32,000 nt of DNA from Candidatus Saccharimonadota bacterium (GTDB taxonomy: Bacteria; Patescibacteriota; Gracilibacteria; Absconditabacterales; Absconditicoccaceae). The stretch spans positions 540,001-572,000 of the forward strand of contig CP006913.1 in NCBI GenBank assembly GCA_000503875.1. The letters run 5' to 3'. Both the position numbers and the translations under genes were made by a program. Shown here one piece after another: positions 315 through 23,183 of the stretch. The notes below the pieces were generated by a model. That model made no database searches and was not told the origin of the DNA. It saw only the letters and a program-made list of their open reading frames with translations. Each line of letters opens with the position of its first letter. Position 1 is the first letter of the stretch.

Positions 315-2861
315 TTAATTAACCTTTATATTAATAGTTCCTTCAACTTCTGGTTTATCACTGTAAGATACTTTTGCTTTGATCGTATATGTTCAAGGAG
401 CATCATATGTTGTAGAAGTACTTATACATTCTCTTCCATTACATTCCAATGTCTTTCCATTTCAAAAGTCCCAATAAATTTTTTCTGGCAATCAGTTAAG
501 GGTTAAACTCATAGGAACTCTATCTCCTATTTTTGCTATCTGCCCAGGATGAGCATCCAAAGTTAAAGTAAGTTGAACCGTTTGTTTTTTTACAATAATA
601 GGATACGATAATACTATTTCTTTTTTCATTCATTTTCTTGTTGTCACTGTTACTTTTGGATTATAAGTTCCATTTTCTTTTGCTTGATCATAATTATAGG
701 TATGATTAACTACTGATTGAGATATATTTTTCTTTATTTCCCCATCTCCAAAATCCCAAGTAAAATAGACTATTTCATCACTTGGATCATTTAGTGTTGT
801 TGTTGAAGCATCCAAAGTAACAGTAAAAGGAGATATTCCCACAGAATCAGGCTTTACCAATAATTTACCAATAATAGCATCTCTATTTACACGAACAACA
901 ATATTTTTTTCTGTTTTAGCATTGGTTGTTGCGTCTTCAATAAGTATTTGTACACGATGCTCTTCTGGCGAGTCAATCGTAAATTCAAATATTTTATTAT
1001 CTGGAGACAATACAGGTACACCATCCAAGCTTACTTTTCTAAGAGCACGAGTATTATTTGGAACAACTGAAATTAAATTTAATTGAAGAACTGTTGGTAT
1101 TTCTGAAATAGTAATTATTTCATCACTAAAGGTATTTATTCCAGATTGTGTAAAAGCAGTGAATTTTGGAGAACCTGGTGATTTATATTGTAAGTCATAT
1201 GTTATTTGAAAATCTGTTGCTCCAACCTCAATATCTTCACTTTCACAAGATCATTTTTTACCCTCATCAGTAATAAATTCTACTTTAAGAGAATACATAC
1301 CAGCTGAAGGGAATTGGTAATCAAAAACTGGTTGTTTTGATTTTGTTGTTGCAAGCGTTTTCTTTCAATCAAGAACCAAATATTGATATTCTACGACACT
1401 AGCGTTAGCTTCCAAAAACTGAACATCAAAAGCATATGCTGTACCCTGAGTATTATTTGCAATAATTTCACAAACAGGAACATCAGACTGTTCTACTCTA
1501 AGTGGAAAAATATAAGCATACGCATTTAATCAAGGAAATCTAACTGAAACAGTATATAGTTTTGCTTGTTTATAAGTATAAGTAAATGTAGACGCATCTT
1601 GTTTATCTGCTTGACCATCACCATCAGCATCCCAAACTATTTTGTAGTCTTGTAAAGAAAAATCTCTAAATACACTTGATGCATCAAATCTGATTTTACT
1701 TGGAACTTTTCCAACAATCATTTCTGTATGAGCATCATTATAAGAAATAGATCATTCAACAGGATTTACTGCAATTTCTGATTCAAAAACCAATGATCAT
1801 GCAGGTATATCTTTTTGAAGTTTTTCTCCCGTTGGTGTATTTGTATAATCAACTTTCAACGTCATAGGATATTCTCCTTTCTTAAAATAGATACAGTTAC
1901 CATCAAACTGAGCAGTAGCCATATTCATAGGTACTGTTTGCCCATTTCCACAGTCCAAAATAACTTGATTAAAAGTGGACTGTCCAAAACTTGGCAAAAC
2001 TTGTCCATTAAAGTAATCAGTATTAAGCGCAAAAGAAATAAGCGAAGGAGCTATTAATTTGATAGTAGAAGTAGATACAAATCATGATCATTTTTCAGAA
2101 TCAAGGACATAGACACCAGTTACTATTAGTCTATTATTGTCTACTATATTATCTACAGAAATTTCTTTAATCATATTCAAAACCTTTGATCACAAAGCTA
2201 TTCATCCAATAAATAATACAAAACCAAAAAATAATCAGATTCAATATCATACTTTAGATTTATTTTTTACACTAACCAATCTATATCCGTTTATAATCAA
2301 CATTCACATAGCCAAGAAGACCAACAAACCAAAGAAAATAACAGAGAAAACTTGTAATAAATTTCTCGTTGTTTCTGGATCTAGACCAACACTAGTAAGT
2401 TGTGCTGGGTTATTAATAAGATAATAAAATATACCTACCAATCAACCAACCAAAACTATAAGTAAAACGAAACATCCTATCAAAAATCCCCTCATAGAAA
2501 GTTTAGATCATTGTGTATTTTGAACAACAGTTGGTTTGTTTATATGATTTGGATTATATCACAAAGCTTCCAAATTTTTGTTGTTTTGTTGATATTGAGC
2601 AGAAATTTGTTGAGCTTGCTGATATACTTGTTGTTTTTGAGCATCAGGCAATTGTGGATTTTGAAGCATCGCAGCCAACTGGTTATATTGTTGTTGTAAC
2701 AATTGTTGTTGCTGAAGTAATTGTTGAATTTGTTGTTGATTTAAAACAGCATCAACCTTTTGAGCAGCTTGTGTTGGTGTTTGTTGCGGAATTTGTTGCT
2801 GTCAAACATTAGCATTTTGCTGGGAATTTTGTCCTGCTTTCTGGAAAAATGGATCAACCAT
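315..2861 (-). CDS. Membrane protein, 848 aa: Gln-rich cytoplasmic N-terminus, three predicted TM helices, at least four extracellular PKD-type repeats
   Basis: Track ORFs 630..1028, 1530..1721 and 1797..1997 share one frame and are separated only by TGA. I read every codon: there is no TAA/TAG between TAA 315-317 and TAG 2907-2909, and the first ATG is at 2859-2861. About 40% Gln over about 90 aa (2560-2840). Hydrophobic helices lie at roughly 2190-2490. PKD signatures: WDADGDGQ (1611-1634), WDFGDGE (738-758), WDFGNG (456-473, where the first Gly is TGA at 462-464). Confidence 0.85.
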
Positions 2862-3068: not shown

Positions 3069-6000
3069 ATGTCAAAGAAGATCTATCATTACATCAAAAA
3101 ACCTTTTTCAATTAAACAATATATTTGACATTTATGTATCATACTCTTGGTAGGATTAGGATTTTTTTCTATAGTACAAACAATTTTTGCTCAGACACCA
3201 ACTTGATTTTCAGTAACAAACATCAAAAATACAGGTGATTATATCACTACAAAAAATTATGGAACTATTAATTTTTCATGAACAGGAATCCCCTCTCTTT
3301 TTCAACGATCTTGGAATAATGTTTGAAATAATCTTTCAACAATATTTTATGAACCAAAACCAAATGGAAATACAATTTATTTCAACAACTTCGACACTCC
3401 AGAAGTTTTGGAACAAAATCAAGTACCTTTAGCTGATTCGATTAGAGATTTTCCTAACGAAAATTTCACAAACGGTACAATATGAACTGGAAATAATTGA
3501 TGGAGCTATTTGTACAAATATCAAATTCAATCATGAGTAACAACATATATATATCCGTATTATTTTAATAGCGATATTTGTTTTGGAATATATCCACCTG
3601 CAACATCATCAGGAGAAATAGGTACGGATTTTCTTTATCCCACTGATGATATTTCGTGAACGGATTGACGAGAGTGTATACGAATTTGAGATTTTTTACC
3701 AACATATTCATCAGATATTGTATTAGTATCATATATTAGCCAAGGTCCTCACCCTTTAGGTGAGTGGGAATGTACAAGGACCTGTACCTCCATTGAAATA
3801 GAACAAACAAACACACAAAACATATTTAAGATGGTAAATCTGACTTTCAATCAGTGAGAATGAAATTCAGAATGAATGCGAACAATATGAACAGGACCAA
3901 TCACAGATTATAGTTTTGCAAATATAGGAAAAAAATATACCCATCCATGATCTGGTATGCTAGATACTTCATGATACAATAATATCCCAGTCATCCGACA
4001 ACGAACAAGTAATCTAAGTGGAAAAATTAAAATTATAAACAAGATTCAAGATGATGAAAACAATTGTTGAAATGGTATTATTTACAAAATATATACAGGA
4101 ATAATAGAAAATTGAGACACATTAACAGGAGTTAAAAACATAAAAACACATTATCTTCCAAATCTATCAGGCACAACTATAGAACGAAGTTGAAATATAA
4201 GCATAAATGAAAATATTTTCTTTGAAATAAATAATAGTTGAGATAATCAATGTGATGGTACTAGGAATTGGATTCAAATATATGATATTACTGACAATGC
4301 CGAAATAACTGGATGACCAAGTTATACAGAAAACGGAAACTACTGATGAGCATTGAATTTTACAGGAAGTCAACAATATAGTCTGGGTACAGGGATTAAT
4401 CAAAGTACAACAAGTGGAATTACTATAGCAGCGTGGATAAATACAAGAGATAAAAATCAATCACAAGGTATTATTACCAAGAAATTTTCTTATGGAATCG
4501 TTCTAAAACAATGAACCTTGCGAATTTCTCCAAGTACCTATTGGATGCGACATGATACAGGAATTCCTATTGATTCAAACACACGAACACATGTAGCGTG
4601 GACCTACGATGGATCTACTATGCGTGCGTATAAAAATGGTTCACAAATCCGAACGTATAATATAAACTGAGAATTAAACGGAAATGAAAGCGAAGTAATG
4701 ATTGGATATGACGAACTCAATCAACGATGACGAAATGGACAAATAGATGAATTTCGTATGTATGACACCACGTTCACTACAGGACAAATCGAAGAACTTT
4801 ACGAATCAAATCTAAAACTTGTAAATAGCTGAGTAAATTCTTCTTGGAATTTTATCATAAACAAAACAGGCTTAGTTGATGGAAAATATATATATACATG
4901 AATATATGATTGAAAATTAGAATTTTTAAGTACATATTGAGACATAAATAGCCGATATACAACAAATTTTAACGAAATTCCTGTTTGTATAAATTGTGAT
5001 GACGAATATTGTTCTACTTCTAACATAGAAGAATATATATGATATATATCATGATGAATAGAACTATGTAGATCAAATTATAATAATAACGATGATAACG
5101 TACCATTATACAATTTTTATGTATGATGATGAGATCACGAAATAGCTTGAGAATATACATGAATATATGATAATAAATATTCATATATGAATGATGCATT
5201 ATATAATGATATAAATATATGTAACACAGATTGTGAAGACACTGATACTTGTGTATGATCTGTTGATAATTGGACTAATATATGATCATTGCCTATATGT
5301 AAAGCAGGTATACCTTACCAAACATTAACAACAGAGTATTATAATTCATATAAAACAAATAAGTTACCATTTTATAGTACCTGATCAATCCTTGTAGATC
5401 AAAATTGACCAATTTTCATACAAAGAACAGGAGATATTGTTTATGAATCTCAACATCTAATGTTTACAGGAATTTGGTTTGATACAGGAATGAGCTGATA
5501 TATAACAACATGATTTGATCGATGACGATGATGGGATTTGAATTGACCTTGGGATATAGCAACCAATGGAGAAAATAGTATGGATTTTTGAACAGAGAAT
5601 GAACCAATAAATAAACAAATAAGAATAAGAGTAAAAGATCATGTTAGTAATCGATCATATCGAACATGAATGATTTTTCGATTAAATACTTGACCTGTTA
5701 TCAATGACATAAAACATACCTATACATGAATAGTGGAAGATACTATAACATTTATAGCTTCTGGTTATGATATATGAAATGAACCATTAAGATACCAACG
5801 ATATAATTGAACTTGATGTTTTTATAGTTCTCTTATACAAGGAGAAAGTTGATCAACATTTTCAAAAAACAGTCAAACAGAAACCTGAATCTATTTTTCT
5901 TATAAAATAATAGATACTCAATGATTATGATCTTGTTGGAGTATAACAGGACAACGAGAAACACCTGATGTTGATGCAATAGTACCATCAAATAACTCTT

Positions 6001-9000
6001 GATCATATGCTCGACAGACACCAATCACAGGAACTATTATTTTTTCTTGAAATATAGGGACATGTACAGGAGATAATGAATATACTTATTATATAGGTAC
6101 ATGAATAGGTAATGATTATTGTATTGTTCAAAATTGAGAAAATCAAATAGTTCTCTGACGATACGGAGTAAATAAGTATCTTACCTTGTTTTCACAAACA
6201 GGGACAAGAATAAATCCATATCTTATAAACGAAAATATACAACCATTTATTATTGAATTCCAAAATACTAATCTTACATGATTTGCACGATCAGTAAGTG
6301 GAACCAACAATAATAGAAAAGTTGAAAGTCAGATTTATAATTCATGATTAATAGGATTATATAATTTTGATAAAATTTTGCTTACCGATTCCGAAAAAGA
6401 CTTTTCAGCTATTCAATCCGGGAAAAATCGATCATATTGGAGAAGACCAAAAGGTACTGGAATATATGAATTGCTTCAATATTATGCTCCAAGTCAACAA
6501 CGAATTATTAGTACACCTATAGAAGAGTTTGATTGATTATTTATAGAAAAAAATGAATTAAATCCTGGTTATAATTATGGAGACACAATTCTTTGACGAA
6601 CAAGTCCTGTTAATTCTACGATAGAAATTCAATATACATTAACTGATGCCAACACTAGTTGTGGAGATGGAATTCAATATAAATTATTAAAAAACAATAC
6701 TACTACTGTATTAGCAACATGAGCTTTTGAATCAAAATCAGTAATTACACATATAGCTAGTTGAGACACTATATATCTTGTAGTAAATAGTTTAAATAAC
6801 AATGATTGTGATAATACAAATTATAATATTAAAATTTATCAGCTTCCAGAATCAAATCTCGGAACAAAATGAAATTATCAATGAACAAATTCATGAGCTC
6901 TTTATACCAGTGGAAAATATAATGGAGCATTAAGCTTCTCTGAAAATAGTTATATAACTATATGAACTGGTATACAATCAGGACATATGAGTATAAGTGC
7001 TCGAATATATAAATCATCATGAGATCAACAAACAATTATCCAAAAACGATGATCTTATGGAATGGTTATTTTCAATAATACGTTACAAGTAGCAAACCAA
7101 AATACTATTAGACGATATGATACTCAAATTTCATTACCAGATGATACACGAACACATATCGGTCGAAGTTATGATGGAATTACAATGAAAGTATATATAA
7201 ATGGTAAACAACAACGATCAAACACTATCGTAGGTACAATACCAAGCAACAATTATCCTATAAATATAGGATATAGTTTTTCTAATGGACTACGAAATGG
7301 ATTGATTGATGAAATGTATATATATAGCTATGCTGTTGATAGTGGTGTATTTGCATCATTATACAATCATAATCTCAATAGAATAGCTTGGGATAGATGG
7401 CAACGAAAAAGTAATCAAAGTTGATCAATATATGATTGAAGATATTCTTTCGAGACAAAAGTAAATTGAATACCAACAAATACATGAGAAATTATAAGAG
7501 ATTTTTCAGCTCCTCTATTTACAGGCTTTATTGGACTTACTGGACGAGAATCAACATGACTTATAATAACAGGTTTTTCATATGATAGTGGTTATTCTAT
7601 TTCTGGATATCAATTTAGATATAATTTAGAATGATTTCGAAGTGAGCGATCAAATATAAGTACAGGTAATTCTTTTATCATAAATAAACAAGATGAACCA
7701 ATTACATGATTGGTAGAAATAAAAATAAAAGATTTTTTCTGATATGAAACAATAGGAACAGGAATAATAGATCGAATAAATACAGGACCAATTATTGTTT
7801 GAGATAATGAATTTTATGGAAAATTAGGACAAAATATTGCTTTAATAGCTTCTTGATATGACACAAATTGATGACCATTGACCTATAAACGATATACCAA
7901 TAATGACTGTATTATAAGTAATCAGATTCTATGAAAAACTTGAAGTACATTAATAACATGAAGTACAATCACAGGAACTACTTATTTTTCTTATCAAATA
8001 TTTGACAAACAATTATCTGGAACATGTTTCAATATTTCTTGAACACGAACTGAAGATACAATGTTTATAGACAATACAAAATATTTTATTGGAGATGGAA
8101 GTTGATGAATAATAAGCTGAGAAATATTTCCTCAAGGAGTGAAAATCATAGAAAATGCAAAATATTGAGAATGTTTATTAACTGGTAATAAAGAAATTAT
8201 CAATTATATACCTAACACCTGATCAAAAGAAAATGATAGTTGTATCGTAGAATTAATACATGGTATATACACCGTAGCAGCTTTTAAAAACATTAATACA
8301 TGATTCATTTATTCACGAATACCCGAAATAACATGAATAACAAAAGATATTAAAAACATTACTTGGAAATGAATATTACAAACACCAGTTATTTCTTCAT
8401 TTACAGGCACTTGGAAATGAGAAACAGCACAATGATCTGGAATATTAACAAATAATATTAATATAAATACAAATAATTTAATTAGAAAATATAGTTTTGA
8501 TAGAATTGAAATAACTGATTCTACAAAAGATTTTTGATATTTTTCATGAGAACATGGACGAAAATACTTATGGAATAATGGTACAAGTGGTTGAGAATTA
8601 GTATTTAATCCAAGAACAAAAAACCGAATTATAAATGAACCTCTTCAAGATTATGAATATATATTTATAAATAATTGATCAGCATATCCTTGAGCAACAA
8701 AATATGGTGATATTATCTATGAACGAACAAGTAATGTTACAGGAAATATAAATATTGAAACTATGATAGATAATGCAAATACTTCATCATGTCCATCAAG
8801 TGATGGAATTATCTATCAAATCAAAAAAGAAACTACTACGTTATATACCAAGGACTATGAAAATACAAAAACTATTAGCAATGATATACAAACTACAGGG
8901 ACTTCTATAAGTTACGGAGATAAACTATATTTTATTATAAATTCAAAAGAAAATAATCAATGCGATAAGATAGATTTCAATGTGAAAATATATCAGAATG

Positions 9001-12000
9001 AAACAAATGATTATTCACTATCATGACAACATATTATAAGTTATTGAGCAATATCCGATAACGGAAAATTTTATTGATGATACAGTATATGATCAACAAC
9101 TGGACAATATTTAAATATAGGAACTATAAATAAAGGAACAGAATTAACATTTAGTACATGGATAAAAACTGTTTCAACAGCAGATCAAACAATAATCTAT
9201 AAACAATGATCTTATGGTCTTGCAATAAAAGATAATGAATTAAAGGTTACAACTGATTGAGCACGACGATATCCAACAAATGCTCAAACAATAAATACAT
9301 TAACAAATTCATTACGAAATCATCTTGTACGAACATACGATGGAACAACAATGATTATTTATCTAAATGGTAATCAAACACGATCATGAAGAATTGTTGG
9401 TTACTACCCTAGCAATAGCAATCAAACAATTATTGGACGAGATACTAATCATGGACAATTTAATTGATCATTAGATGAATTACAAGTATGGAATAAAACA
9501 CTTAGTAATAGTGAAATTCAAAATCTATATAATACACAACTTTCCAAAATTGACAGCCAAAGTCGAGAATTTTCTTTGATACAAACAGGCTTGGCTGATG
9601 GTAGATATATGTTTACAGGATATATAAATGAAACAGAAATGTTTACAGGAGCGACTATTGTTGATAATGATCCCCCAATACTAGAAGTTGCACCAATATA
9701 TACAGGCGATGAATGAACCGGTATTATAGTAACAATTACATGATCAGATAATGGAATATGAGAAATTTCGTGATATCAATATTCATTATTACTTACTAAT
9801 GGTAATCCATATTCAACACGATCAACAGGACGAATAACATGAAATACTATTCTTATTCCAAGTCAAAATGAACCTATAAGCTGAATATTAACTATTTTAG
9901 CGAAAGATAGTTTATGACATCAAACAGGTACAACTACTATTATACAATGGAATAATGTAAAAATAATACCAACAGATCTAATAAATTCAGGAAATGAAAC
10001 AACTAATTTATCATTTACAGCCTCAGGTTATGATCCTGGTGGAAGCACATCTACAGGATATCAATGGTATCTTTGAAATAATTGTTTAGGCGCAGTTATC
10101 TTATCAGGTAAAACATTTACAACAGGAAGAAACGAACCTACTACAGAAATTTTTTCATATACAATGACAGATAAACAATGATTATCTTGAATTTGTGGTG
10201 TAGCAACTGGTATACGAAAAAATATAACACCAACAGCACAAGATCTTTTCAAAAATGGAAATGGAAATACCGGAATCACATTTATTGCTTCAGGTTATGA
10301 TCCTGGTGGAACACTGTTCTCCGTTGCTTGGTATAGAGGAAATGAATGTATATGAACCCCTATATCAACAAACATTGATTTCACTACAGGAAGCTTCCAA
10401 AGCGGTACACGAGCATTTTCTTATTATCTACGAGATAATCAATGAGCTACATGAACAAATAATTGACGTTTATGTCAAATAGCAACAGGATATCGACCAC
10501 ATATCAATCCTATTGCTCACGATTTTACTATTAATTCAAATACAGCAAACGTAGCATCTACTTCAAATCGAAGACTTTGATCAGAAGCACGAGACTCTGA
10601 ATTTAATTTATCAGTAAATGCAACTATTAGTTCATGATCAAAGGGATATTGCCAACTAAATAATGATTGGATTTCATTTCAACCAAATACAAACCAAATA
10701 GGAACAGGATTCTGTGAACTCAGATTAACTGATAATAACAATGGTATGACATATGTAAAAGCATATGCACTTAATATAGATACTACACCACCACAGACAA
10801 ACAGTTCAGGAACAAACGAAACTACCAAATTAATATATAACGATACATCAACAGGAACTACATATTACAAAATTCTAACAGGTGTTTGGAGCTCTAGTTC
10901 ATGTGGAAATTCATGATACACAACGTATAGTTCATGAACAACAATAACAATACCATATATTTCTGGATTCAATGATAATAAAACACTTTGTTATTATAGT
11001 ATGGATGTACACGGAAATACTGAAACAGCAAAATCCGAATTATTTAATCAAGATACAGCAAAACTAAGTGCAAACGTTTCATCTAATATATATATGAATA
11101 CGTTATTTCAGGCAACAATATCTGTAAATAAAGCATGTTCAGGAACATTAACTGGATTATATGGAGAGCAGCCACTTGTATTTGCTACTGCAGGAACATA
11201 CTCAATAACAGGATCTTTTCTAGAAACAAGCTGACCAAAAACAGCATATATTTTCTTGCAAACAAACAATCCAGAAGAAGGTATATTCTCATATAATAAT
11301 ACATTTACCATAGATCAAATAGCTCCAAATACGCCAATTATCACAGAAAATTTACAATATAACGATTACTATTCTATCAAACGAAGTTCATCAACAGATT
11401 GATGAGCGGGTATGCTTTGATATAATTATCAAATAAGTAATGGAGAAAATATTATAAAAAATTGATTTACTGAAGTAAACTATCTCAACATCTTTAAATC
11501 TGAAGTACAAAACAACAGTCAAATTTCTATCAAAGTACAAGCTCAAGATAAAGTAAATAATACAAGTTCACGATCTACACCTACAACAATTACTATATCA
11601 TCACAACAAACAACGACTATTGATACTACACCAAACCAATTTATATTTACAAAAGTAACAAATGCAAAAAGAGATACAGAATATACTTCAAATGAAATAG
11701 TAATTTGATGATTGAGTACAAATACAAGTATTCCAATAACACTTTCGAATTGAACATTATTTATTAATGACACAAACGTAACTAATTCTGGAACAGTAAA
11801 AAATGGAGATATTGTATATATAAAATTAGATTCAAGTGATACATATAGTGAAACAACTAAAGCAACATTATTGGCAAATAATATAGCAGCAACATATAAT
11901 ATAACAACAGAATCTAAAAATACTTGATCTACAACATCATTCTTAGATGAATTAAAGAAATTATTGGAACAATTAAAAGATGAAGATACAACAGGAACCA

Positions 12001-12182
12001 CAACAAGTACTGGTATTGATACCAAATGGATAAGCGCTCCTTATATAGCTGCAAACGGAAAAACATATAATCTATACAAAACTCTCGATGGTAAATATAG
12101 TGCTTATAATTTTATTTATAAAAAGACATTTAATTCTCTTACAGAATTAAAACAATATATTAACAAAAACAATCCTAGATAA
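3069..12182 (+). CDS. Giant secreted surface protein, 3037 aa: three LamG/concanavalin-A-like lectin domains plus Ig-like and Fn3-like repeats
   Basis: The frame is open from ATG 3069 to TAA 12180-12182. It was read codon by codon and only TGA interrupts it. It joins track ORFs 7062.., 8763.., 11001.. and 11964.., all in the same frame. The N-terminus MSKKIYHYIKKPFSIKQYIGHLCIILLVGLGFFSIVQTIFAQ looks like a Sec signal peptide. It has three LamG domains and four ASGYD Ig-like domains (5757, 7848, 10020, 10287). There is a CYYSMDVHGN motif (10989-11018) and an Fn3-like STDGGAGMLGYNYQI (11391-11435). Confidence 0.85.
4350..4809 (+). other. LamG (Laminin_G_3-like) lectin domain 1 of the 3037-aa protein
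   Basis: ALNFTGSQQYSL...ITIAAWIN...THVAWTYDGSTMRAYKNG...GQIDEFRMYDTTFTTGQIEELY. Confidence 0.75.
6924..7376 (+). other. LamG domain 2
   Basis: GALSFSENSYITI...MSISARIY...THIGRSYDGITMKVYINGK...GLIDEMYIYSYAVDSGVFASLY. Confidence 0.7.
9096..9539 (+). other. LamG domain 3
   Basis: QYLNIGTINKGTELTFSTWIK...NHLVRTYDGTTMIIYLNGN...GSLDELQVWNKTLSNSEIQNLY. Confidence 0.75.
12042..12179 (+). repeat. C-terminal NGKTY module, single copy, at the extreme C-terminus of the 3037-aa protein
   Basis: YIAANGKTYNLYKTLDGKYSAYNFIYKKTFNSLTELKQYINKNNPR followed by the stop. Confidence 0.7.
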
Positions 12183-12263
12183 TCATACTTACCCACCCAA
12201 AGGGAAAACCAAAACATATTAGAACATATTTTCAAAAAAAGACAAGAACGAAAACAGAAAAAA

Positions 12264-12342
12264 GCTTCATCAAAATAGCCAAAAAATAAAAATACTCTAT
12301 AATAGGTATATCTTTTATCTAGTATGGCTTTTTTGATGAAGC
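12264..12342 (+). promoter_or_regulatory. Long-range inverted repeat enclosing the start codon of the 1280-aa gene
   Basis: The left arm gcttcatcaaaatagcca (12264-12281) pairs with the right arm tggcttttttgatgaagc (12325-12342). That gives 12 bp, one T:T mismatch, then 5 bp, with a 43-nt AT-rich loop. The ATG is at 12324-12326, so its T and G and the next five codons lie in the stem. A TATAAT at 12298-12303 sits inside the loop. Confidence 0.5.
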
Positions 12343-15300
12343 AAGCAAAACGAAAGGAACATCTCAAAAAATTGATGTTTATTCAACATATTATATTCTG
12401 AGCTATAATCTGCCTTGGAATTGGTTTTATTATAACCAAAACATTGGCTAATGATTGAAGCGTATCTCGAAATCAATGAGAATATATCAATGATTATTTT
12501 TGGAGTCAAAATCCGTCAACATGAAATATTTTTGATGCTTTATATAGTGGCAATACAGCATATACAAAAAACATGAGTTGATATGATTTTCAAAATAATA
12601 CATGTAGCAAAAACAATATAAATATTGTTATATATACCTGATGAAACCAATATACTATATTACCTGAAATTATCACAGAAAATACAGTATTTATTCTTAA
12701 TTCATGAACTTACGTAAATACAATTTCTCAAATAACATTAAGCGGAGACTGTATAGCAATAATAGGAAGCTGAAAGGCTACTTTTTGAGGAAACATTAAA
12801 AGAAATACACAAACAAAATATACTATAATTGACAATATATTATATCGAAATAATAGTTTTTATAGTCCTACATATACAACACAGACATGAATAAATATTC
12901 AAGTTTTTGCTAATTCTACATCAAATTATTTGATAAGTGGATCATTTCTATCTTGATACATAACATGAACAATACAAAATCAAGCAACCAATATTCCTAT
13001 CACATTAGAACACCCAAACAATTCAAATACTATAGATATAGTTCTTTATGATACATATAATCATATAAATCACAGTAAAAAGACAATTATTAATGATAAC
13101 ATTATACCAATAATAACAGCATTTCTATCATGAACTGCAACACCAATAAATAATTGAGAAACATATAATACAGGAATCAGTTTATCTGTTAGTGATGATA
13201 ATCTTTCATGAATTACAAATAATTGATCTTCCCTTAATTGATCTTCTTTTGTTTTTACAAACCAATGATTATATAGTGTAATTGCTTGAGATAAAGCAGG
13301 TAATACAACTGGAATTTCTTTCGAAATAGATACTACTCCACCAAATATTATCAATCTTCAACCAGTTAGTGGTAGTAACGTAAATACATCACTTTTAACA
13401 TTATCTTGGACAACACAAGAGAATACTACAAAAATTAAATCTCAAAAATATTATCTTTATAGTGGAACTAACCTATTAGCATCGGGCATTGTACAAGCAG
13501 GAGTAACTAGTCAAACATTACCAAATATCAATAATGGAACATACAAACGACAAATTGTTTTAGAAGATACCGCTGGCAATATAGCAACTTGAGAATCTTC
13601 AAATATTAAATTTACCAAGATTCCTAGTATATTTATAACACCAACAGCACATTTATTAAGTAATAAACGATATACCAATACAGATCCTATTATTATACTG
13701 TCTGGTAATAAGAATTTTGATTATACAATAATTAAATCTGGTTTCTTATTGGGTAATAGCACTTATACATGAATAACAAAACAAGAAATTATTTCAATCA
13801 GCCCACAAACAGGAGATATTCTTATACAAATTGGATATACGACACAAGATTGAGAAATTGGAACAGGAAATTTCAGCTTTTTTATTGATACAACTCTTCC
13901 ACAGTTTACACTTAAACCACTAGGAAAAAGAACAAATAGTACTAATTCTATATTATATACACGAACAGGAAGTAAAACAGATGATAGAATTAAATATTAT
14001 AATTTTTTGATAAACAACTCTATAGTATATAGTGGAACTAACAAGTATTATACCAAGACATGATTACAAGTAAACGGAACATATATAGCTCAAGTAAGAG
14101 GAATTGATATAGCAGGTAATATGGGACAATCTATAGCAGAAACAACTATTATTGATCAGACGCCTCCTACAATTCACAATGTAGTAAATAATACATTATA
14201 CAAAGAATTACCCTACCCTATTATTAGAGATGAAAATAATGATCCTGTACAAGTAACTGTTAAGAAAAATTGAGTAACAATATTGTCAGGAATACAAAAT
14301 ACAGAATATGTAGTATGATTAGATGTAGGTGAAGCTGTATATATAATTACAACAACAGATATAGCAGGTAATACTACCTGATTAACATTTACTATAGATA
14401 CTACAGTTCCAACGGTAGGATTACTGACACCAATAAGTTGAACAATTATAACAGGTAATAATTCAATCGTGTTTACATGGACAGGAAACGATACAAATTT
14501 TTCTGGATTTGATTTTAGTTTACGAAGTAATGATTATTGATATTTCAGTACAGGAAGACAAACAACAAATAGAAATCTGACTATTAATAATCTTAATAAT
14601 GGTATTTATTATCGAAAAGTTATTGCTACAGACAAAGCAGGAAATACAACAACATCATCTACACAGCATTTTACTATAAGTGTTCCTCTCACATGACAAA
14701 TAAGTATCAGTTGAGCAGTAACTGTAGCATATATACAATATGTAAATTCAGAAAATATAAAATTAATAACAAACATTAATAAACCTACAGTATTAACAAT
14801 TACCGGAAATATAGTTTGAGAATATGGATCTCAAATAATTAACAAAGAAATTTGAGCAGGATCACAAACAACATCAATACAATTAACAGCAGGTGAAGGA
14901 AGAAAAGATTTTTATATAACTCTTCAAGACTATATAGATAATAATATATTAAGTTATTTTCAAAGTGTTGTTGTAGATAAAACATTACCAAGTAAACCAA
15001 TATTAACGACTATAAATAATCAAATATACACAGGTACAGTAACATTAAATTGGCCAGTATCAACAGATGATTGATCTGGAATAAAAGGATATAGTTATCA
15101 AATTACACAAAACAATCAAATAAAAAAAGCAGGAACAACATCTTCTGCATCAATGGTAATACAAAATATGGAATTATGAAACCAAGGGTCTTTTACGCTA
15201 AAAATAAAAGCTATCGATAATGTTAATAATGAAAGTGATCGATCAGAAAATGCTGTATTTAGCTACACAGGAATTCCCGATACTTCACCAGATAGTTTCA

Positions 15301-16166
15301 CTTTTTCTAGACAAACAAATGTAGAAATAGAAAAAACATATAAATCAAATACAATAACAATAACTTGATTAAGTCTAAATACAACTGTTATGGCAACTAT
15401 TGATGAATGAACATTGTTTGTAAATGGAATCGATGTAAATGAACGGGCTCTAGTACAAAATGGAGATGTTATTTATATAGAATTAGAATCAAGTGATGAA
15501 TATGATGAAGTAACAACATCAACATTAACTATAAACGATAAGACAGCTACATTTAAATTAACTACCGAAAATAATGATGATGACGATGATGATGACGACG
15601 ATGATAATGATGATGATTATAATTTATCAGATAATGAAATTGATGAATTAGAACAAACCTACGAATTAATAAGTATTCTTGATAGTAGTCTAAAATTAAA
15701 ATTTAAAGAAATGTTGGAGGATAAAATTGATGAATTGGAAAAAGAAGATGCAGATGAAGATGAAATAGAAAAATTACGTTATATTTATGATCGTGTTGTC
15801 GAAGATATTAATTGAACAGAAGATATTATCTATACTGCTCCAAATTGAAAAACGTATATTATAGTGTACAAAGAATGAGTTTGATATTCTTCTATTAACT
15901 TTAGTACAGCAAATAAAACTAAATATTTTTCAACATTAACGGAAATCAAAACTTTTATAGATAAAAACAATACTAAGTTATCATTAAATTATACTGTTGA
16001 TAACTCTCGAAGTACTGCGACATATAATGCACCAAATGGTAAAACATACAAAATATTTAGAACAACAAATGGTCAATATGGCTCGTATAATATGGTAATA
16101 CCAAAATTATTTAATACATTACAAGAATTAAAAAATCATATTAATAAAAACAATCCAAAAAAGTAA
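12324..16166 (+). CDS. Large secreted surface protein, 1280 aa: beta-helix cap, repeated Ig-like D-x-AGN domains, Fn3-like domain, poly-Asp/acidic helical linker, two C-terminal NGKTY modules
   Basis: ATG 12324 to TAA 16164-16166 in the same frame as track ORF 15414..15815; only TGA interrupts. The N-terminus has a basic stretch plus a hydrophobic anchor (MAFLMKQAKRKEHLKKLMFIQHIIFGAIICLGIGFII). Repeated motifs are typical of bacterial surface Ig-like domains: AGDKAGNTTGISFEIDTTPP, LEDTAGNIATG, IDIAGNMGQS..IDQTPPT, TTDIAGNTTGLTFTIDTTVPT, ATDKAGNTTT, and WPVSTDDGSGIKGYSYQI. Confidence 0.85.
15576..15617 (+). repeat. Poly-Asp tract (D10-N-D3) encoded by GAT/GAC
   Basis: Read directly as gat gat gac gat gat gat gac gac gat gat aat gat gat gat, in frame in the 1280-aa gene. 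Confidence 0.95.
15825..16163 (+). repeat. Two tandem NGKTY modules at the C-terminus of the 1280-aa protein
   Basis: Copy a (15825-15971) is IIYTAPNGKTYIIVYKEGVGYSSINFSTANKTKYFSTLTEIKTFIDKNN. Copy b (16023-16163) is YNAPNGKTYKIFRTTNGQYGSYNMVIPKLFNTLQELKNHINKNNPKK followed by the stop. Confidence 0.7.
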
Positions 16167-16182
16167 TTTATAATTGATCACT

Positions 16183-17322
16183 TTAAGAAATTAATTCATA
16201 GATATTCTCTATCTTTTCTACGGTTTCATCTCGATGAAAAGTTTTAACTGGCAAGATTTCAACATCTTGCTGGTTTTCTTTTATTGTTAGAATTGCATCC
16301 AAAATTTGTTTAGAAGATCATGGTTTAATAAATATAGTAGTACCTCAAACAACTTCAGGTAAAGAAGCAATATATGTTGTAATAAGTGGTTTTTTCATAG
16401 CAACTGTTTCTGTATGTACAGATCAAAATCATTCAGAAAGTGATGGAGCTACAACAATATCACAAGAAGCCACCATATCACGTAAATCATTTTTATCAAC
16501 TCATTGAAAAATTTGTATCTGACGAGCAAATCAAAATTTTTCTAAAAAACGCAAACGATTAAGCGTTTTTGTTTTTCTTTTGGAATCTATTATATTAAAA
16601 ACAAACAATACAGTTGGATCATATTTTATCATTTGAGGAATACAGTCAATTAGTGAGTCCAAACCTTTAGATTTACCTGCGTGACCATAATACAAAACAA
16701 TAAATCTTCAATTCCAAGAATATTCTTTTTTCCAATCGGTAATTTTTTGTTCATCTACATATTCTGGATTCCAAAAATCATAATCTACCCCATTATAAAT
16801 AACATGTAATTTTTCATCGGAAATACCATATAATAACCTCAATGAATTCATTGTATATTTAGAAACACAGTGATATATAGTATACGGCATAATAAAAAGC
16901 ATTTTTTCCAAAAATAGATATACTCTTCCCCAAAACCAACCTTTATATAAAATCCAAAGTTTCCCAAATACTTCATGAACTGTTAAAACTACTTTTTTAT
17001 GAAAAAAATATCATAATATACTAGCAGGAAACGCACCAACATAAGTACTTGCATGAATAAGATCAAATTTTTGTTGTTTCAAAAGAAAGAATCCTTTGAT
17101 TAAAGAAAAAAATAGAAAAGAAAATCTTCAAAAACCTACTCTATATATTTCCAGATTATTTAAATGTTCATATGTTTTAAGTCTTTTATCAAAATGACTG
17201 GTGATAAGTGTTATATGATATCATTTTGCTCTTAATCTTTGGATAATTTGTTCAAAAACAGTTTCTACACCTCAACAATGAGGTAAATAATAGTCCAAAA
17301 ATAATAATATGCTCTTTTTCAT
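16183..17322 (-). CDS. GT4-family (GT-B fold) glycosyltransferase, 379 aa
   Basis: ATG (complement of 17320-17322) to TAA 16183-16185. The sequence contains ...VAPSLSEGFGSVHTETVAMKKPLITT..., which is the E-x7-E signature region of retaining GT4 enzymes. Both Gly of EGFG are TGA (16423-16425 and 16429-16431). The N-terminal MKKSILLFLDYYLPHCGGVETV resembles the GT4 N-terminal Gly-rich loop. Confidence 0.85.
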
Positions 17323-17492: not shown

Positions 17493-18800
17493 ATGAAACA
17501 AAAAATAAAGGTAACAACAGCAAAATTATTTAATCATCTCCACAAAGTCAAAAAAAGACATGTAGAGAGATTTTTGCATACTTGGACACATACCCATCAT
17601 GCTATGATTCATATGGGTGAATTACTTATTGTAGGAACAATTTGATTTTCTAGTTTATTATTTGCCAATTATAATAATTCATATGAGCATCTACACAGAA
17701 ACACAGCTCAAGAGATAGTTCAGTCATTAAGTAAAGCTATAGAACAACAAAGCCAAAAAACAAACGAAAGTAAGGTTATCTCCGTTTGGGAAATGGATGG
17801 AAATGTAAATAATACCTTTTCTGTATGATATTGTACCTACGGAGCTGCACGCATTTCTCCAGAATTTTTCCCTTATTCAGAAGACAAAATGTCCCAAGAA
17901 AGAACCCGAGGTGGAAATGCTATAGATCGATGTGAAAATGCTGAAAAAGCTGGATTTAAAATTTGATCAAAACCAAGTATATGATCGCTCATTGTTTATA
18001 AAAAAGTTTGAAATGATATAACTTTCTGACACGTAGGTAAAGTTATGTATTACAATAAATCAAAGGAATCATTAATTATAAGAGATATGAATTGGATTGC
18101 TAAATCTATTATGAGTGATCGTCGAGAAGATTCAAAAAACGAAAATATTAAATGTTATATTTATCCAGGGAAAACTACAGTAGATGAAACAATAAACACC
18201 ATAACTGATAAATTTAACGTAAATACAGGTAACGTAGTAATTACTGGTAATTCAAACACAGGTAATATTATAAATACTACCCCAAATAAACCTGAATCAA
18301 ATTGAAATACGACAACGACTACTACTACAACTACTACTACAACTACTACAAACAATACAACACATGACGTTGCTCCAATAGAACCAACAATACAAGAGCC
18401 AGAAAACACTACTTTTTATGAACAATTAGATACATTAAACGAAAATGAAATAGTAATAATACCTAATGATAGTTTTTCTGATATTAGCAAACATTTTCTT
18501 TCACAATATGAAATGAAAATAACTATTATTAAAAAAGATCAAATAACTGTAGGTGAAAATATATTATTAAATATAACTATTATCAACAAAGACACTAAAG
18601 AACCATATCAATGAATTCTTCCGTTTATATTCAATAGTATCAGTCAAAACAATATTTTAGAAGGATCACTTGAAACATTACAACTTATGCATAATAAAGA
18701 AAATATAATTAATTTTAAAGCAAAAGAAAAAGGAACCAGTACTATTCTTCTAACCATTGATGATCAAAAAATAGTAACGATTCCTATTACAATAAACTAG
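17493..18800 (+). CDS. Membrane-anchored CHAP-domain peptidoglycan hydrolase with poly-Thr linker and C-terminal beta-rich domain, 435 aa
   Basis: ATG 17493 to TAG 18798-18800. There is a TM segment MIHMGELLIVGTIGFSSLLFA. CHAP-like catalytic context: GYCTYGAARISPEFF (Cys codon 17832-17834), then GNAIDRCENAEKAGFKIGSKPSIGSLIVY, then FGHVGKV (His codon 18030-18032). A run of 14 consecutive Thr codons lies at 18309-18350. Confidence 0.8.
18309..18350 (+). repeat. Poly-Thr tract (14 consecutive ACN codons) in the CHAP protein linker
   Basis: Read directly as acg aca acg act act act aca act act act aca act act aca, in frame. Confidence 0.95.
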
Positions 18801-21911: not shown

Positions 21912-23183
21912 TTAAAAATATTTATCTAACCATTGCCAAAATGATCTGTTCGTATAAGTTGTTTCCGATTCTTCAGTATCTATAGTATTTATAAGGTCTC
22001 CTATAGTAGGCTTATTTTCGTCATAATTTTGAACTAAATAATCTCTATAGGTCATCTTCTTAAAAGTACAAGTTCTATTTGCATAATATCATTTAAGTTT
22101 TCATCCGACACAAAGTCTAAGTTCAACTTCACAAGGGAGATCAATCAATCCAATAGACGATTTATATGCTTTAATAAATTGACCGTTTTTCACTTGTTCT
22201 CACCAAGGAGTAACACATTTAATGTTTGCTGTTGAGGTTTGAGAAACTGAATTAGTGTCGGCTGGTCTTCCTGAACTAGGAGATCACCAAGTATCTATAG
22301 AATCTGATGTTCAATTTATTTTTCCATGAGTATCAAAATTCGATCAATTTAAAGATGGCTCTGTTGGTTGTATAAAAGTATCTTTAGGTTTTTGTGTATA
22401 AGAAATAGCTTCTGGTTTTACATATGAGTATAAAGTATGTTCTTTACATGATTTCTGAGAATAAAAACCAGAAAGTTTACCATTTATACAATATCTTCTT
22501 TGTACATTACAAAGATTAGTAACATCTTTTCTTTGTTCATATGCCAATACAAAATCTCCATTTGCTACATATTCTCCCCAAGAAGTTATACAAACAAAAT
22601 CTTGTTGAGAAAGAGATAATCAAGATGATTGAACTCATGTATCGATAGTGATTCAACTAGGTAAGATAAGGTTATTATCAAGTTCTCCATTAAGAGATCC
22701 AGTAAGAGAAGAATCCTGATTATCAGGAGGAAAATAATCTTTTTCTACAGAAGACGATGGCGTTTGAGGCGAAAGACCTTGTGATGAAGTACTTGTATAT
22801 GATGAATTATTTGACTGTAATGGCATATTTGCCTGTGATGAAATGTTTTCTGAGGGAGTTGTTGCCTGTAACGGAGTATTTGCCTGTGAATCAGTTATTC
22901 AATCTTGAAAAAGATAATCCCAATCACCAGCAGCACCATGTGTTCCAGCTTCAGTAGAATCAATTCACCAGTCATCAGGAGTCCCCGGTAATACGAAAAC
23001 AACTTGATCAGGAGAACTTGATGTTTTTAACCAAAATGACTCCTGCTGCGTAATAACAAGTGCACAGAAAAACATCAAAAACCAAACCACAAAAAATCTT
23101 TTGAGAATTTCTCAAAAAGAAATCTGGCTTTTAAACTGGATTTTTATATTCTTACTAGTTCTTTTTTTATGAGTAATCTTCAT
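21912..23183 (-). CDS. Secreted or membrane-anchored protein with Ser/Thr/Gln-rich linker and two 4-Cys repeat modules, 423 aa
   Basis: ATG (complement of 23181-23183) to TAA 21912-21914, extending track ORF 22344..22547 in frame through TGA codons. The N-terminus has basic residues followed by the hydrophobic FFVVWFLMFFCALVI. The two modules are CITSWGEYVANGDFVLAYEQRKDVTNLCNVQRRYCINGKLSGFYSQKSC (22446-22592) and CVTPWGEQVKNGQFIKAYKSSIGLIDLPCEVELRLCVGGKLKGYYANRTC (22068-22217). Confidence 0.75.

What the first reader, a model, noticed from the sequence alone, without database searches (positions are those of the whole stretch)
11622..16163. Unassigned ~45-aa C-terminal NGKTY...ELKxxINKNNP module preceded by a shared TPxxFxF beta-domain: candidate envelope-anchoring or sorting signal
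Both adjacent giant proteins end with the same architecture.
- First comes a domain of about 97 aa starting (T/S)P(N/D)(Q/S)F(I/T)F. It contains ...SN.I.I.GLS.NT...(G)TLF(I/V)N......G.V.NGD(I/V).YI.L.SSD.Y.E.T. It lies at 11622-11915 in one protein and 15279-15569 in the other.
- Next comes an acidic, helix-prone linker.
- Last comes the module (A/P)NGKTY-x(5-6)-(D/N/E)G-x-Y(S/G)(A/S)(Y/I)N(F/M)...F(N/S)(S/T)L.E(L/I)K..I(N/D)KNN. There is one copy at 12042-12179 and two tandem copies at 15825-15971 and 16023-16163. The last copy always sits flush with the stop codon.

I cannot assign the module to a family from memory. Its strict C-terminal position on giant secreted proteins suggests a cell-surface retention or export/sorting role. 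No LPXTG, SLH or similar known anchor is visible in these proteins.
Basis: partly seen in the sequence, partly recalled or inferred. Interest (0 to 1): 0.7.

Follow-up and report, generated by a model that had tools for sequence, protein, structure and literature searches.

The report
New C-terminal module on surface proteins
Two neighbouring giant secreted proteins of an uncultured bacterium that reads TGA as glycine end in a small, previously undescribed, positively charged folded module that recurs at the very end of many secreted proteins in this lineage and in one of its phages, and most likely tethers those proteins to the cell's own envelope, although no binding has been tested.

Summary
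The window uses genetic code 25 (TGA = Gly). Two adjacent genes, A (3069-12182, 3037 aa) and B (12324-16166, 1280 aa), end in one and two copies of a ~50-aa module, flush with TAA stops.

An exhaustive profile search found 127 cluster representatives. In 115 of the 123 that carry the module, the last copy lies within 5 residues of the C-terminus. Arrays hold 1-3 copies. All long members appear to come from TGA-recoded genomes.

The module has no match in Pfam, NCBIfam, PDB or BFVD. AlphaFold2 gives a confident mini-domain (pLDDT 95.5): a small antiparallel sheet plus one helix.

- It is the most conserved part of fast-evolving proteins.
- It is strongly basic (pI 9-10) on acidic proteins.
- It follows variable passengers (LamG lectin, beta-helix, LRR, Ig) that carry N-terminal signal peptides and no other anchor.
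- Two related code-25 tailed phages carry two copies in a structural-block protein.

Best reading (confidence ~0.5): a new non-covalent retention module that binds a component of the bacterium's own envelope. A sorting-signal role is unlikely. Docking to a surface protein and prey binding remain live rivals. All functional statements are inferred.

The parts
3069..12182 (+). Gene A: giant secreted protein (3037 aa from MSKKIY; start codon not verified), code 25, 142 in-frame TGA = Gly
   Evidence: orthologue in L003 at 51% identity
3069..3191 (+). A: N-terminal signal peptide or anchor (basic n-region, hydrophobic core, ...TIFA|QT)
   Evidence: heuristic only, no trained predictor was run
9102..9521 (+). 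A: best-scoring of three ConA-like lectin domains (Laminin_G_3)
   Evidence: E = 2.4e-49 for the whole protein, 3 stretches
11622..11915 (+). A: ~97-aa Ig-like beta-sandwich domain of the conserved C-terminal cassette
   Evidence: homologous domain modelled at pLDDT ~90; generic Ig-like Foldseek matches
11916..12026 (+). A: short helix (SFLDELKKLLEQLKDED) plus Thr/Gly-rich connector
12027..12179 (+). A: single terminal module copy (pI 9.7, net +6), followed by TAA at 12180-12182
   Evidence: (E = 2.3e-23)
12324..16166 (+). Gene B: 1280-aa secreted protein, 41 in-frame TGA = Gly
   Evidence: orthologue in L003 at 60% identity
12324..12449 (+). B: N-terminal signal peptide or anchor (...TKTLA|ND)
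   Evidence: heuristic only
14550..14678 (+). B: bacterial Ig-like domain (Big_13)
   Evidence: E = 2.4e-6
15279..15569 (+). B: ~97-aa Ig-like beta-sandwich domain of the cassette
15570..15818 (+). B: poly-Asp run followed by the conserved acidic three-helix-bundle domain
   Evidence: (helices at 123-139, 144-167 and 171-193 of the homologue model, pLDDT 84-93)
15819..15977 (+). B: internal module copy (pI 9.4), contains three TGA = Gly codons
   Evidence: (E = 1.3e-19)
15978..16010 (+). B: short spacer between the two module copies
   Evidence: equivalent connector has low confidence in the model
16011..16163 (+). B: terminal module copy (pI 10.1, net +7), followed by TAA at 16164-16166
   Evidence: E = 7.9e-25; model pLDDT 95.5
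315..2861 (-). Conserved neighbour: polytopic membrane protein with a Gln-rich N-terminus and PKD domains
   Evidence: PKD E = 1.9e-22; syntenic in L003, L004 and L009
16183..17322 (-). Conserved neighbour: GT4-family glycosyltransferase, convergent with gene B
   Evidence: Glyco_transf_4 E = 1.1e-25; syntenic in L003, L004 and L009
17493..18800 (+). Conserved neighbour: 435-aa protein with an N-terminal hydrophobic segment and a poly-Thr linker, no family match
   Evidence: syntenic in L003, L004 and L009

Best explanation
The ~50-aa module is a new, lineage-specific, non-covalent surface-retention domain.

Proposed mechanism:
1. Proteins A and B are exported through Sec via their N-terminal signal peptides.
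2. Their variable N-terminal and central domains (lectin-like, beta-helix, Ig-like) are the functional passengers.
3. The constant C-terminal cassette (Ig-like beta-sandwich, acidic helical domain, 1-3 basic mini-domains) holds them on the cell.
4. The basic terminal mini-domain binds a component of the bacterium's own envelope, most plausibly an anionic wall glycopolymer or peptidoglycan.
5. Extra upstream copies are old, specialised duplicates that add avidity or specificity.
6. Phages of these bacteria carry the same module in a structural-block protein, probably to engage the same envelope component.

Shown: the module's existence, fold prediction, position, distribution, charge, conservation and contexts. 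Inferred: signal-peptide cleavage, binding, the ligand and the phage protein's role.
For: 1. Position: in 115 of 123 carriers the last copy is within 5 residues of the C-terminus, and within 2 residues in 106. The same holds in every bacterial locus read directly from DNA under code 25: window, L003-L006, L008, L009.
2. Constant module, variable passenger: three LamG domains in A and Big_13 in B; beta-helix, LRR + Flg_new and Big_9 elsewhere; a 256-aa secreted protein in L008. The LRR + Flg_new proteins are internalin-like (my knowledge of Listeria internalins), with the module where internalins carry LPXTG, GW or WxL anchors.
3. Conservation: in four orthologue pairs the terminal module is 79-87% identical versus 49-60% upstream of the cassette.
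4. Charge: the terminal copy has mean pI 9.0-9.8 and net +4 to +6, on passengers of pI 4.7, next to a very acidic helical domain. From my knowledge, known non-covalent wall anchors that bind anionic polymers show this pattern.
5. Need for an anchor: there is one N-terminal hydrophobic segment, no other TM-like segment in 50 full-length members, and many canonical short signal peptides. No sortase-type signal or hydrophobic tail is present.
6. Folded, specialised units: pLDDT 95.5; beads-on-a-string cassette; copies are position-specific, 47-53% identity for the same position across proteins versus 38-41% between positions within one protein.
7. Phage reuse: L007 and L010 are collinear code-25 tailed-phage contigs. 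L010 has an intein-split terminase, and both have SU10-like capsid and adaptor genes. A ~950-aa structural-block protein holds two copies, 64-72% identical between the two phages. A phage translated with code 25 must infect a code-25 cell, so a ligand on that cell is the economical reading.
8. Published context: Absconditabacteria have a Gram-positive-type wall and giant membrane-proteome proteins thought to form a fibrous surface (PMC8080830). Gracilibacteria encode complete peptidoglycan synthesis (PMC11452946).
Against: - No binding data exist and no ligand is identified.
- The fold resembles none of the known wall-binding folds. Foldseek gives nothing significant, only a partial likeness to half an SH2 domain, which is a protein-binding fold.
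- Signal-peptide cleavage was judged by eye and a crude heuristic, not a trained predictor. Some N-terminal hydrophobic segments are long enough to be uncleaved anchors, including A's at ~20 residues. That would remove the need for a C-terminal anchor.
- Only two module genes were seen per locus. I could not count them per genome, so a general anchor shared by many proteins is not shown.
- The first copy of triple arrays is neutral, not basic.
- The phage protein's role (ejection protein, fibre or other) is unknown.
- A few bacterial proteins carry the module with 17-114 residues after it.
Confidence: 0.5

Rival explanations
1. Protein-protein docking module, working like a dockerin. The terminal mini-domain plugs into a dedicated surface scaffold or membrane protein, for example the PKD-domain membrane protein encoded next door, or into other copies of itself, assembling the giant proteins into a surface coat or fibre rather than binding a wall polymer.
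For: - The only recurring structural likeness is to the C-terminal half of SH2, a peptide-binding fold.
- Module genes come in tandem pairs: window, L003, L005, L006, L008.
- The PKD membrane protein, GT4 and the 435-aa protein are syntenic with B-type genes in four loci. They are more conserved (49-59% identity) than B itself (34%).
- Flush C-terminal placement is also typical of dockerins (my knowledge).
Against: - The PKD/GT4 neighbourhood is absent from L005, L006 and L008, which still carry module pairs.
- No partner was identified and no complex prediction could be run.
- The strong positive charge fits an anionic polymer at least as well as a protein.
- Phage reuse would then require the phage to target the same scaffold protein, which is possible but an extra assumption.
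Confidence: 0.2
2. Distal adhesive tip. The proteins stay anchored in the membrane by an uncleaved N-terminal signal anchor, and the basic C-terminal module at the far end of the rod binds the surface of the host or prey bacterium, for example anionic LPS.
For: - Several N-terminal hydrophobic segments are long (about 20 residues in A) and could act as anchors.
- These lineages are episymbionts or predators whose giant proteins are thought to mediate attachment (PMC8080830).
- A basic tip could bind anionic prey envelopes.
Against: - Many members have textbook short cleavable signal peptides.
- The passengers (LRR, LamG lectin, beta-helix) are the usual ligand-binding parts, and they are the variable parts.
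- Code-25 phages, which only meet the code-25 cell, carry the module.
Confidence: 0.15
3. C-terminal export or sorting signal, recognised by a dedicated secretion or processing machine and possibly removed, in the manner of the T9SS C-terminal domain or T1SS signals.
For: - Strictly terminal position, usually flush with the stop.
- Conserved ...NNP(K/R)(K/R) ending.
Against: - The proteins already have Sec-type N-terminal signals.
- There are 1-3 position-specific copies, whereas known sorting domains are single.
- Two internal copies occur in phage proteins without signal peptides.
- No hit to T9SS CTD, sortase, exosortase or other sorting models in Pfam or NCBIfam.
- No conserved secretion or processing gene was seen in the neighbourhoods.
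Confidence: 0.05

Closest known systems
SLH (S-layer homology) and CWB2 (cell wall binding 2) triplets of Firmicutes surface proteins
   Same: Non-covalent terminal anchoring modules of roughly 50-90 aa, typically in tandem sets of up to three non-identical copies. They are shared by many different secreted passengers and bind anionic secondary wall polymers (my knowledge). Here arrays of 1-3 position-specific copies sit at the terminus of varied secreted proteins.
   Different: No sequence or structural similarity. The module here is smaller, about 50 aa of sheet plus one helix. Copies are modelled as separate beads rather than a packed pseudo-trimer (inter-domain confidence low, pTM 0.51). 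The ligand is unknown.
GW modules of Listeria InlB/Ami and the internalin architecture
   Same: Basic, C-terminal, tandem, non-covalent anchors that bind anionic lipoteichoic acid (my knowledge). P0122 and P0136 have LRR + Listeria-Bacteroides repeats followed by this module in the same terminal slot. The terminal copy has pI 9-10.
   Different: GW modules are ~80-aa SH3-like barrels. No Pfam or Foldseek match to them was found.
Type I/II dockerins of cellulosomal proteins
   Same: Small C-terminal modules, usually flush with the stop, that attach diverse passengers to a surface scaffold (my knowledge).
   Different: Dockerins are Ca-binding duplicated EF-hand-like helices. The module here is mostly beta with one helix, shows no Ca-binding loops, gives no Pfam hit, and no cohesin-like partner was identified.
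T9SS C-terminal sorting domain (Por_Secre_tail)
   Same: Folded domain, strictly C-terminal, on large secreted adhesins and enzymes.
   Different: The T9SS CTD is a single ~80-aa beta-sandwich, is cleaved, and exists in diderm Bacteroidota (my knowledge). Here there are 1-3 copies of a different fold, and no model hit.
SH2 domain (C-terminal half: central sheet strands plus helix alphaB)
   Same: Best, though non-significant, structural and sequence likeness: about 32 aligned columns at rmsd 1.8 A to SAP/SH2D1A, and weak HMM hits to Yes and HCK SH2.
   Different: Only half of the SH2 fold is covered. TM-score is below 0.5, Foldseek E >= 0.3 and HMM E >= 0.24. The N-terminal helix alphaA, which is part of the SH2 fold, has no counterpart in the model. 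It is extracellular and bacterial. This is analogy at most.

Membership tests
Sortase substrates (LPXTG / NPXTG cell-wall sorting signal) | LPXTG-like motif followed by a hydrophobic segment and a basic tail at the C-terminus | tested here: not met
   No motif in the last 150 aa of A or B. Maximum Kyte-Doolittle (17-mer) hydropathy in the last 120 aa is 0.34-0.43.
SLH, LysM, SPOR, SH3b, GW, CW_binding_1/2, WxL, PG_binding (Pfam wall-binding domains) | Significant match to the family HMM | tested here: not met
   No such family reported for the tails, for whole A and B, or recurrently among 131 module copies.
Known wall-binding folds (structure level) | Significant structural match of the module model to a solved wall-binding domain | tested here: not met
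   Foldseek vs PDB: 0 matches at E <= 0.001, best E = 0.3, and none of the listed top 50 is a wall-binding domain. BFVD likewise gave 0 matches at E <= 0.001.
T9SS C-terminal domain and other NCBIfam sorting domains (PEP-CTERM, GlyGly-CTERM, MYXO-CTERM) | Match to the NCBIfam or Pfam model; single terminal copy | tested here: not met
   No sorting-domain model reaches its cutoff. The only hit to a CTERM-anchored family, MXAN_2561, scores 16-18 bits against a 150-bit cutoff and maps to residues 22-135 of the tails, upstream of the beta-domain and modules. Arrays of 1-3 copies. No PEP or GlyGly motif.
SH2 domain | Full alphaA-sheet-alphaB fold with significant sequence or structure match | tested here: not met
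   Only ~32 columns align, TM < 0.5, E >= 0.3. HMM E = 0.24 and 1.2. The module model starts with a strand and has no N-terminal helix.
MBD (methyl-CpG-binding domain, PF01429) | Score above Pfam gathering threshold (21 bits) | tested here: not met
   Only 10 of 131 copies match, best E = 0.0067. On B's tail the score is 11.8 bits against a 21-bit cutoff.
DUF7028 (PF22970) | Score above Pfam gathering threshold (27 bits) | tested here: not met
   17.1 bits on B's tail, covering only the beta-hairpin. Only 3 of 131 copies match, best E = 0.093.
Dockerin | Duplicated Ca-binding loop-helix motif with a Pfam match, and a cohesin partner | tested here: not met
   No Pfam hit. The predicted fold is three strands plus one helix. 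The partner question is not testable with these tools.
Functional class: non-covalent cell-envelope anchor | Demonstrated binding of the isolated module to envelope material | not testable with these tools
   Only indirect evidence: position, charge, conservation, passenger variability and phage reuse.

The most novel reading that the evidence does not exclude
The module is the founding member of a new class of envelope-anchoring domain specific to TGA-recoded CPR bacteria (Gracilibacteria/Absconditabacteria). It would recognise a lineage-specific wall glycopolymer, possibly one built with the help of the syntenic GT4 glycosyltransferase, and so display the giant adhesins these episymbionts or predators use. 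Their phages would have captured the same domain to recognise or penetrate that envelope.
Probability: 0.25. Interest if true: 0.78.

Novelty: new variant of a known kind. Interest (0 to 1): 0.62.

Why it matters
Gracilibacteria and Absconditabacteria are almost entirely uncultured, reduced-genome episymbionts or predators. Their giant surface proteins are assumed to mediate host contact, but how those proteins are held on the cell is unknown.

A defined, portable, confidently foldable ~50-aa module offers three things:
- a sequence marker for this part of the secreted and surface proteome in code-25 genomes, which standard pipelines fragment or mistranslate;
- a concrete reagent, because a module-reporter fusion can be used to ask what it binds, to label or capture these cells from enrichments, and to identify an envelope ligand;
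- a link between these bacteria and their code-25 phages.

It also adds a domain family that is missing from Pfam, NCBIfam and the PDB.

Tried and rejected
- Table-11 ORF calling is useless here; the genes break at TGA.
- Code 4 (TGA = Trp) was rejected, because TGA falls on invariant Gly.
- Word-indexed protein searches with the 3-copy and the 131-copy profiles returned only short table-11 fragments.
- Pfam and NCBIfam on the tails, whole proteins and 131 copies gave no significant family. MBD and DUF7028 are sub-threshold.
- The PDB sequence search with the profile gave nothing.
- Foldseek of the module against PDB and BFVD gave nothing significant. Foldseek of the cassette returned only generic Ig-like sandwiches.
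- tblastn of the capsid-like protein against INPHARED phages gave no match. PDB sequence searches of L007 proteins gave nothing. PHROGs gave one weak hit.
- I first read a BLAST line as showing that only the modules are conserved between the two phage proteins. A proper alignment showed this was a filtering artefact: the C-terminal helical half is conserved too.
- Promoter and terminator scans around the genes were uninformative; counts equalled the shuffled expectation.
- The weak hits P0099, P0110, P0111, P0114, P0120 and P0126 are unrelated repeat proteins that match only the hairpin or the helix. I excluded them.


Full report
**Genetic code and gene models.** Under table 11 the window holds almost no long ORFs. 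Treating TGA as sense raises the bases in ORFs of at least 150 aa from 2.8 kb to 36.6 kb; TAG or TAA as sense does not help comparably. TGA codons fall on invariant glycines: the MnmA PP-loop (LS##VDS = SGGxDS), the UvrD/PcrA Walker A (GAGS#KT) and pyruvate kinase (DTK#PEIR). Two adjacent plus-strand genes result: A at 3069-12182 (3037 aa from the first plausible Met, 142 TGA) and B at 12324-16166 (1280 aa, 41 TGA).

**The observation.** The tails of A and B align over about 400 residues (E = 1.6e-38), and B's last 49 residues match A's at 53% identity. Both genes end in TAA directly after the module. An HMM built from copies found here and in related loci scores each window copy at E = 1e-19 to 1e-25 and hits nothing else in the window.

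**How widespread it is.** A scan of GTDB representative genomes found four loci in MAGs labelled Candidatus Peribacteria or Absconditabacterales. In all four, TGA is a sense codon in the giant genes. Three of the four carry a tandem pair of module genes; L004 has a single B-like gene. Every array ends 0-3 residues before the stop.

An exhaustive HMMER search of 1.84 billion cluster representatives with a deliberately narrow 3-sequence profile found 127 proteins at E <= 1e-3, 88 of them at E <= 1e-10. Of the 128 proteins then held (these 127 plus P0001), 123 carry a recognisable module. The last copy lies within 2 residues of the C-terminus in 106 and within 5 residues in 115. Among proteins of at least 500 aa, 36 have three copies, 24 have two and 3 have one.

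The database versions were translated with code 4. Long members have a Trp fraction of 1.8-9.4% (median 5.2%), against a true 0.3-0.9% in the window proteins, and 16 copies read APNWK instead of APNGK. So the family looks confined to TGA-recoded lineages. None of the members checked has an informative name. Because the search profile was narrow, 127 is a lower bound.

**What the module is.** Nothing is significant in:
- Pfam or NCBIfam for the tails;
- Pfam for whole A and B;
- Pfam across 131 individual copies. The best recurring hit is MBD, in 10 of 131 copies with best E = 0.0067 and far below its cutoff; DUF7028 matches 3 of 131;
- PDB sequences searched with the profile (best E = 0.13).

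AlphaFold2 with a 131-copy alignment gives a very confident model: mean pLDDT 95.5, pTM 0.78, with strands at residues 5-8, 14-19 and 25-27, a bridge at 36 and a helix at 39-49. Foldseek finds no significant neighbour in the PDB (best E = 0.3) or in BFVD. The only recurring likeness is to the C-terminal half of SH2 domains (about 32 columns, rmsd 1.8 A, TM < 0.5). None of the listed matches is a wall-binding domain. It is an undescribed domain family with a simple sheet-plus-helix fold.

**The cassette around it.** A model of a two-copy homologue's tail (P0049, chosen because it has few TGA-to-Trp artefacts) shows four units:
- a beta-sandwich at residues 24-108 (pLDDT about 90);
- a three-helix bundle at 123-193;
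- two copies of the mini-domain at 203-248 and 267-310.

The connectors have low confidence and pTM is 0.51, a beads-on-a-string picture. The beta-sandwich matches generic Ig-like domains: collagen adhesin CNA, titin/obscurin Ig, S-layer SbsC and CARDB, at E about 1e-3. In A the helical part is reduced to one short helix.

**Evidence bearing on function.**
1. *Secretion.* All 50 full-length members examined have one N-terminal hydrophobic segment and no other TM-like segment. Many mid-sized members have textbook short signal peptides, for example MKRLLYISILSILLMLPVATFS|QS. No sortase-type, PEP-CTERM or WxL signal or hydrophobic tail exists in A or B. Cleavage was not tested with a trained predictor.
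2. *Variable passengers.* A has three ConA-like lectin domains and B has Big_13. Other members carry a right-handed beta-helix, Big_9, or LRR plus Listeria-Bacteroides repeats. That last combination is an internalin-like layout, with this module in the slot where internalins carry LPXTG, GW or WxL anchors (my knowledge of internalins). L008 has a 256-aa secreted protein that is little more than a signal peptide, two short helical repeats and two modules. The window's third giant gene (27518-31999, minus strand) lacks the module, so it marks a subfamily rather than all giant proteins.
3. *Conservation.* In four orthologue pairs the terminal module is the most conserved segment: 79-87% identity, versus 68-73% for the last 330 aa and 49-60% for the rest.
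4. *Charge.* The terminal copy has mean pI 9.0-9.8 and net +4 to +6. Passengers have pI 4.7, and the helical domain carries -5.8 charges per 50 aa. In the window, modA has pI 9.7 and modB2 pI 10.1, against whole-protein pI values of 5.2 and 4.9.
5. *Copies are specialised.* The same position across different proteins is 47-53% identical, whereas different positions within one protein are 38-41% identical. Single copies, and the last copy of two-copy arrays, are closest to the last copy of three-copy arrays. The first copy of triple arrays has a conserved Cys pair (APNCK...NPGDC).
6. *Synteny.* A polytopic PKD membrane protein, a GT4 glycosyltransferase and a 435-aa protein of unknown family flank B-type genes in the window, L003, L004 and L009. 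In L009 they are 49-59% identical to the window's copies while B is only 34% identical. L005, L006 and L008 have different neighbours.

**The phage copies.** The clearest positional exception, P0121, lies on L007, where all genes are co-oriented and hold up to 47 in-frame TGA codons. Two adjacent L007 genes hit the SU10 major capsid protein (E = 4.2e-4) and the SU10 adaptor (E = 1.3e-3, nearly full length); the latter also hits a PHROG virion protein. A metagenome scan with the capsid-like protein found L010, a collinear 30-kb relative with 78% capsid identity that also uses code 25.

L010 adds a terminase large subunit (Terminase_6N, 22.8 bits, above the 22.0 cutoff) split by an intein (Hint + LAGLIDADG), and a weak P22-like portal hit. 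These are tailed phages of code-25 hosts. In both, a ~950-aa protein downstream of a ~1070-aa protein holds two internal module copies. It has no signal peptide, a Gly/Ser-rich N-terminal half and a long helical C-terminal half. Between the two phages the modules are 64-72% identical, the C-terminal half 62% and the N-terminal half 28%. This corrects an earlier misreading of a filtered BLAST line. No relatives were found in IMG/VR or INPHARED.

**Interpretation.** These features fit a non-covalent retention module better than the alternatives: terminal position, constant module behind variable passengers, top conservation, positive charge on acidic proteins, Sec signals with no other anchor, and tandem specialised copies. 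The phage copies argue that the ligand sits on the code-25 cell itself and not on its prey, because a phage translated with code 25 only ever meets that cell. Published work reports a Gram-positive-type wall and giant membrane-proteome proteins thought to give a fibrous surface in Vampirococcus (PMC8080830), and complete peptidoglycan synthesis in Gracilibacteria (PMC11452946). Neither paper, in the passages searched, describes a terminal module, and a further search found no such description.

I put about 0.5 on self-envelope retention with a polymer or peptidoglycan ligand, 0.2 on docking to a surface protein, 0.15 on a prey-binding tip and 0.05 on a sorting signal. The remainder covers roles not considered.

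**Limits.**
- All functional statements are inferred.
- The structure models are predictions, and no coordinates or PAE were available to map conserved surface residues or inter-copy packing.
- Signal-peptide cleavage is unverified.
- The number of carriers per genome is unknown.
- The phage protein's role is unknown.
- The family census used a narrow profile and mistranslated database entries.

Noticed in passing
window 1-32000 (all genes): The whole window uses genetic code 25. TGA encodes Gly at invariant positions of MnmA, UvrD/PcrA, pyruvate kinase and a GT4 enzyme. Table-11 gene calling shatters every gene, and public databases hold the relatives either as short fragments or as code-4 translations with Trp in place of Gly.
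   Followed up: yes
L007 1-13580 and L010 1-21236: Two collinear tailed-phage contigs that themselves use code 25. Gene order in L010: terminase large subunit split by an intein (Hint + LAGLIDADG), P22-like portal, scaffold, SU10-like capsid and adaptor, a ~1070-aa protein, the module-bearing ~950-aa protein, then a large helical protein. They have no relatives in INPHARED or IMG/VR. L010 also encodes two small LamG-domain proteins at its left end (254-985 and 951-1652).
   Followed up: partly
window 27518-31999 (-): A third giant surface-protein gene, cut by the window end (more than 1493 aa, 82 TGA). Its N-terminal part resembles B-type proteins of L005 and L006, but it lacks the module and ends ...APGNYSGTLTLTMNGF. 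This is a different C-terminal ending that I did not characterise.
   Followed up: partly
window 315-2861 (-), 16183-17322 (-), 17493-18800 (+): A conserved gene block surrounds the B-type gene: a Gln-rich polytopic membrane protein with PKD domains, a GT4 glycosyltransferase, and a 435-aa protein with an N-terminal hydrophobic segment and a poly-Thr linker. The last has a Cys...His arrangement (GYCTYGAAR ... FGHVGKV) that is reminiscent of CHAP/NlpC-type hydrolases, from memory only; Pfam gave no hit. The block recurs in L003, L004 and L009 and is more conserved than B itself.
   Followed up: partly
window 21912-23183 (-): A 423-aa protein with an N-terminal hydrophobic segment, a Ser/Thr/Gln-rich region and two copies of a ~50-aa four-Cys unit (C.T.WGE.V.NG.F..AY...C......C..GKL.G.Y....C). 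It has no Pfam match and is conserved in L003.
   Followed up: no
L008 13147-13917 and L008 561-962: A small 256-aa secreted protein consists of a signal peptide, two short helical repeats and two terminal modules, right after a 1039-aa Flg_new protein that also ends in two modules. A Phage_holin_4_2 gene lies about 9 kb upstream on the same contig.
   Followed up: partly
P0125, P0118, P0101, P0117 (database proteins): A few bacterial members have 17-114 residues after the last module. P0125 has a Ser/Asn-rich tail and P0118 an 88-residue tail rich in TGA-derived Trp (in reality Gly). I did not check whether these are true extensions or gene-call artefacts.
   Followed up: no
window 15570-15620: B has an uninterrupted acidic run (NNDDDDDDDDDDNDDDY) between the beta-sandwich and the helical bundle. 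Similar poly-Asp/Glu runs occur at the same place in many family members.
   Followed up: no
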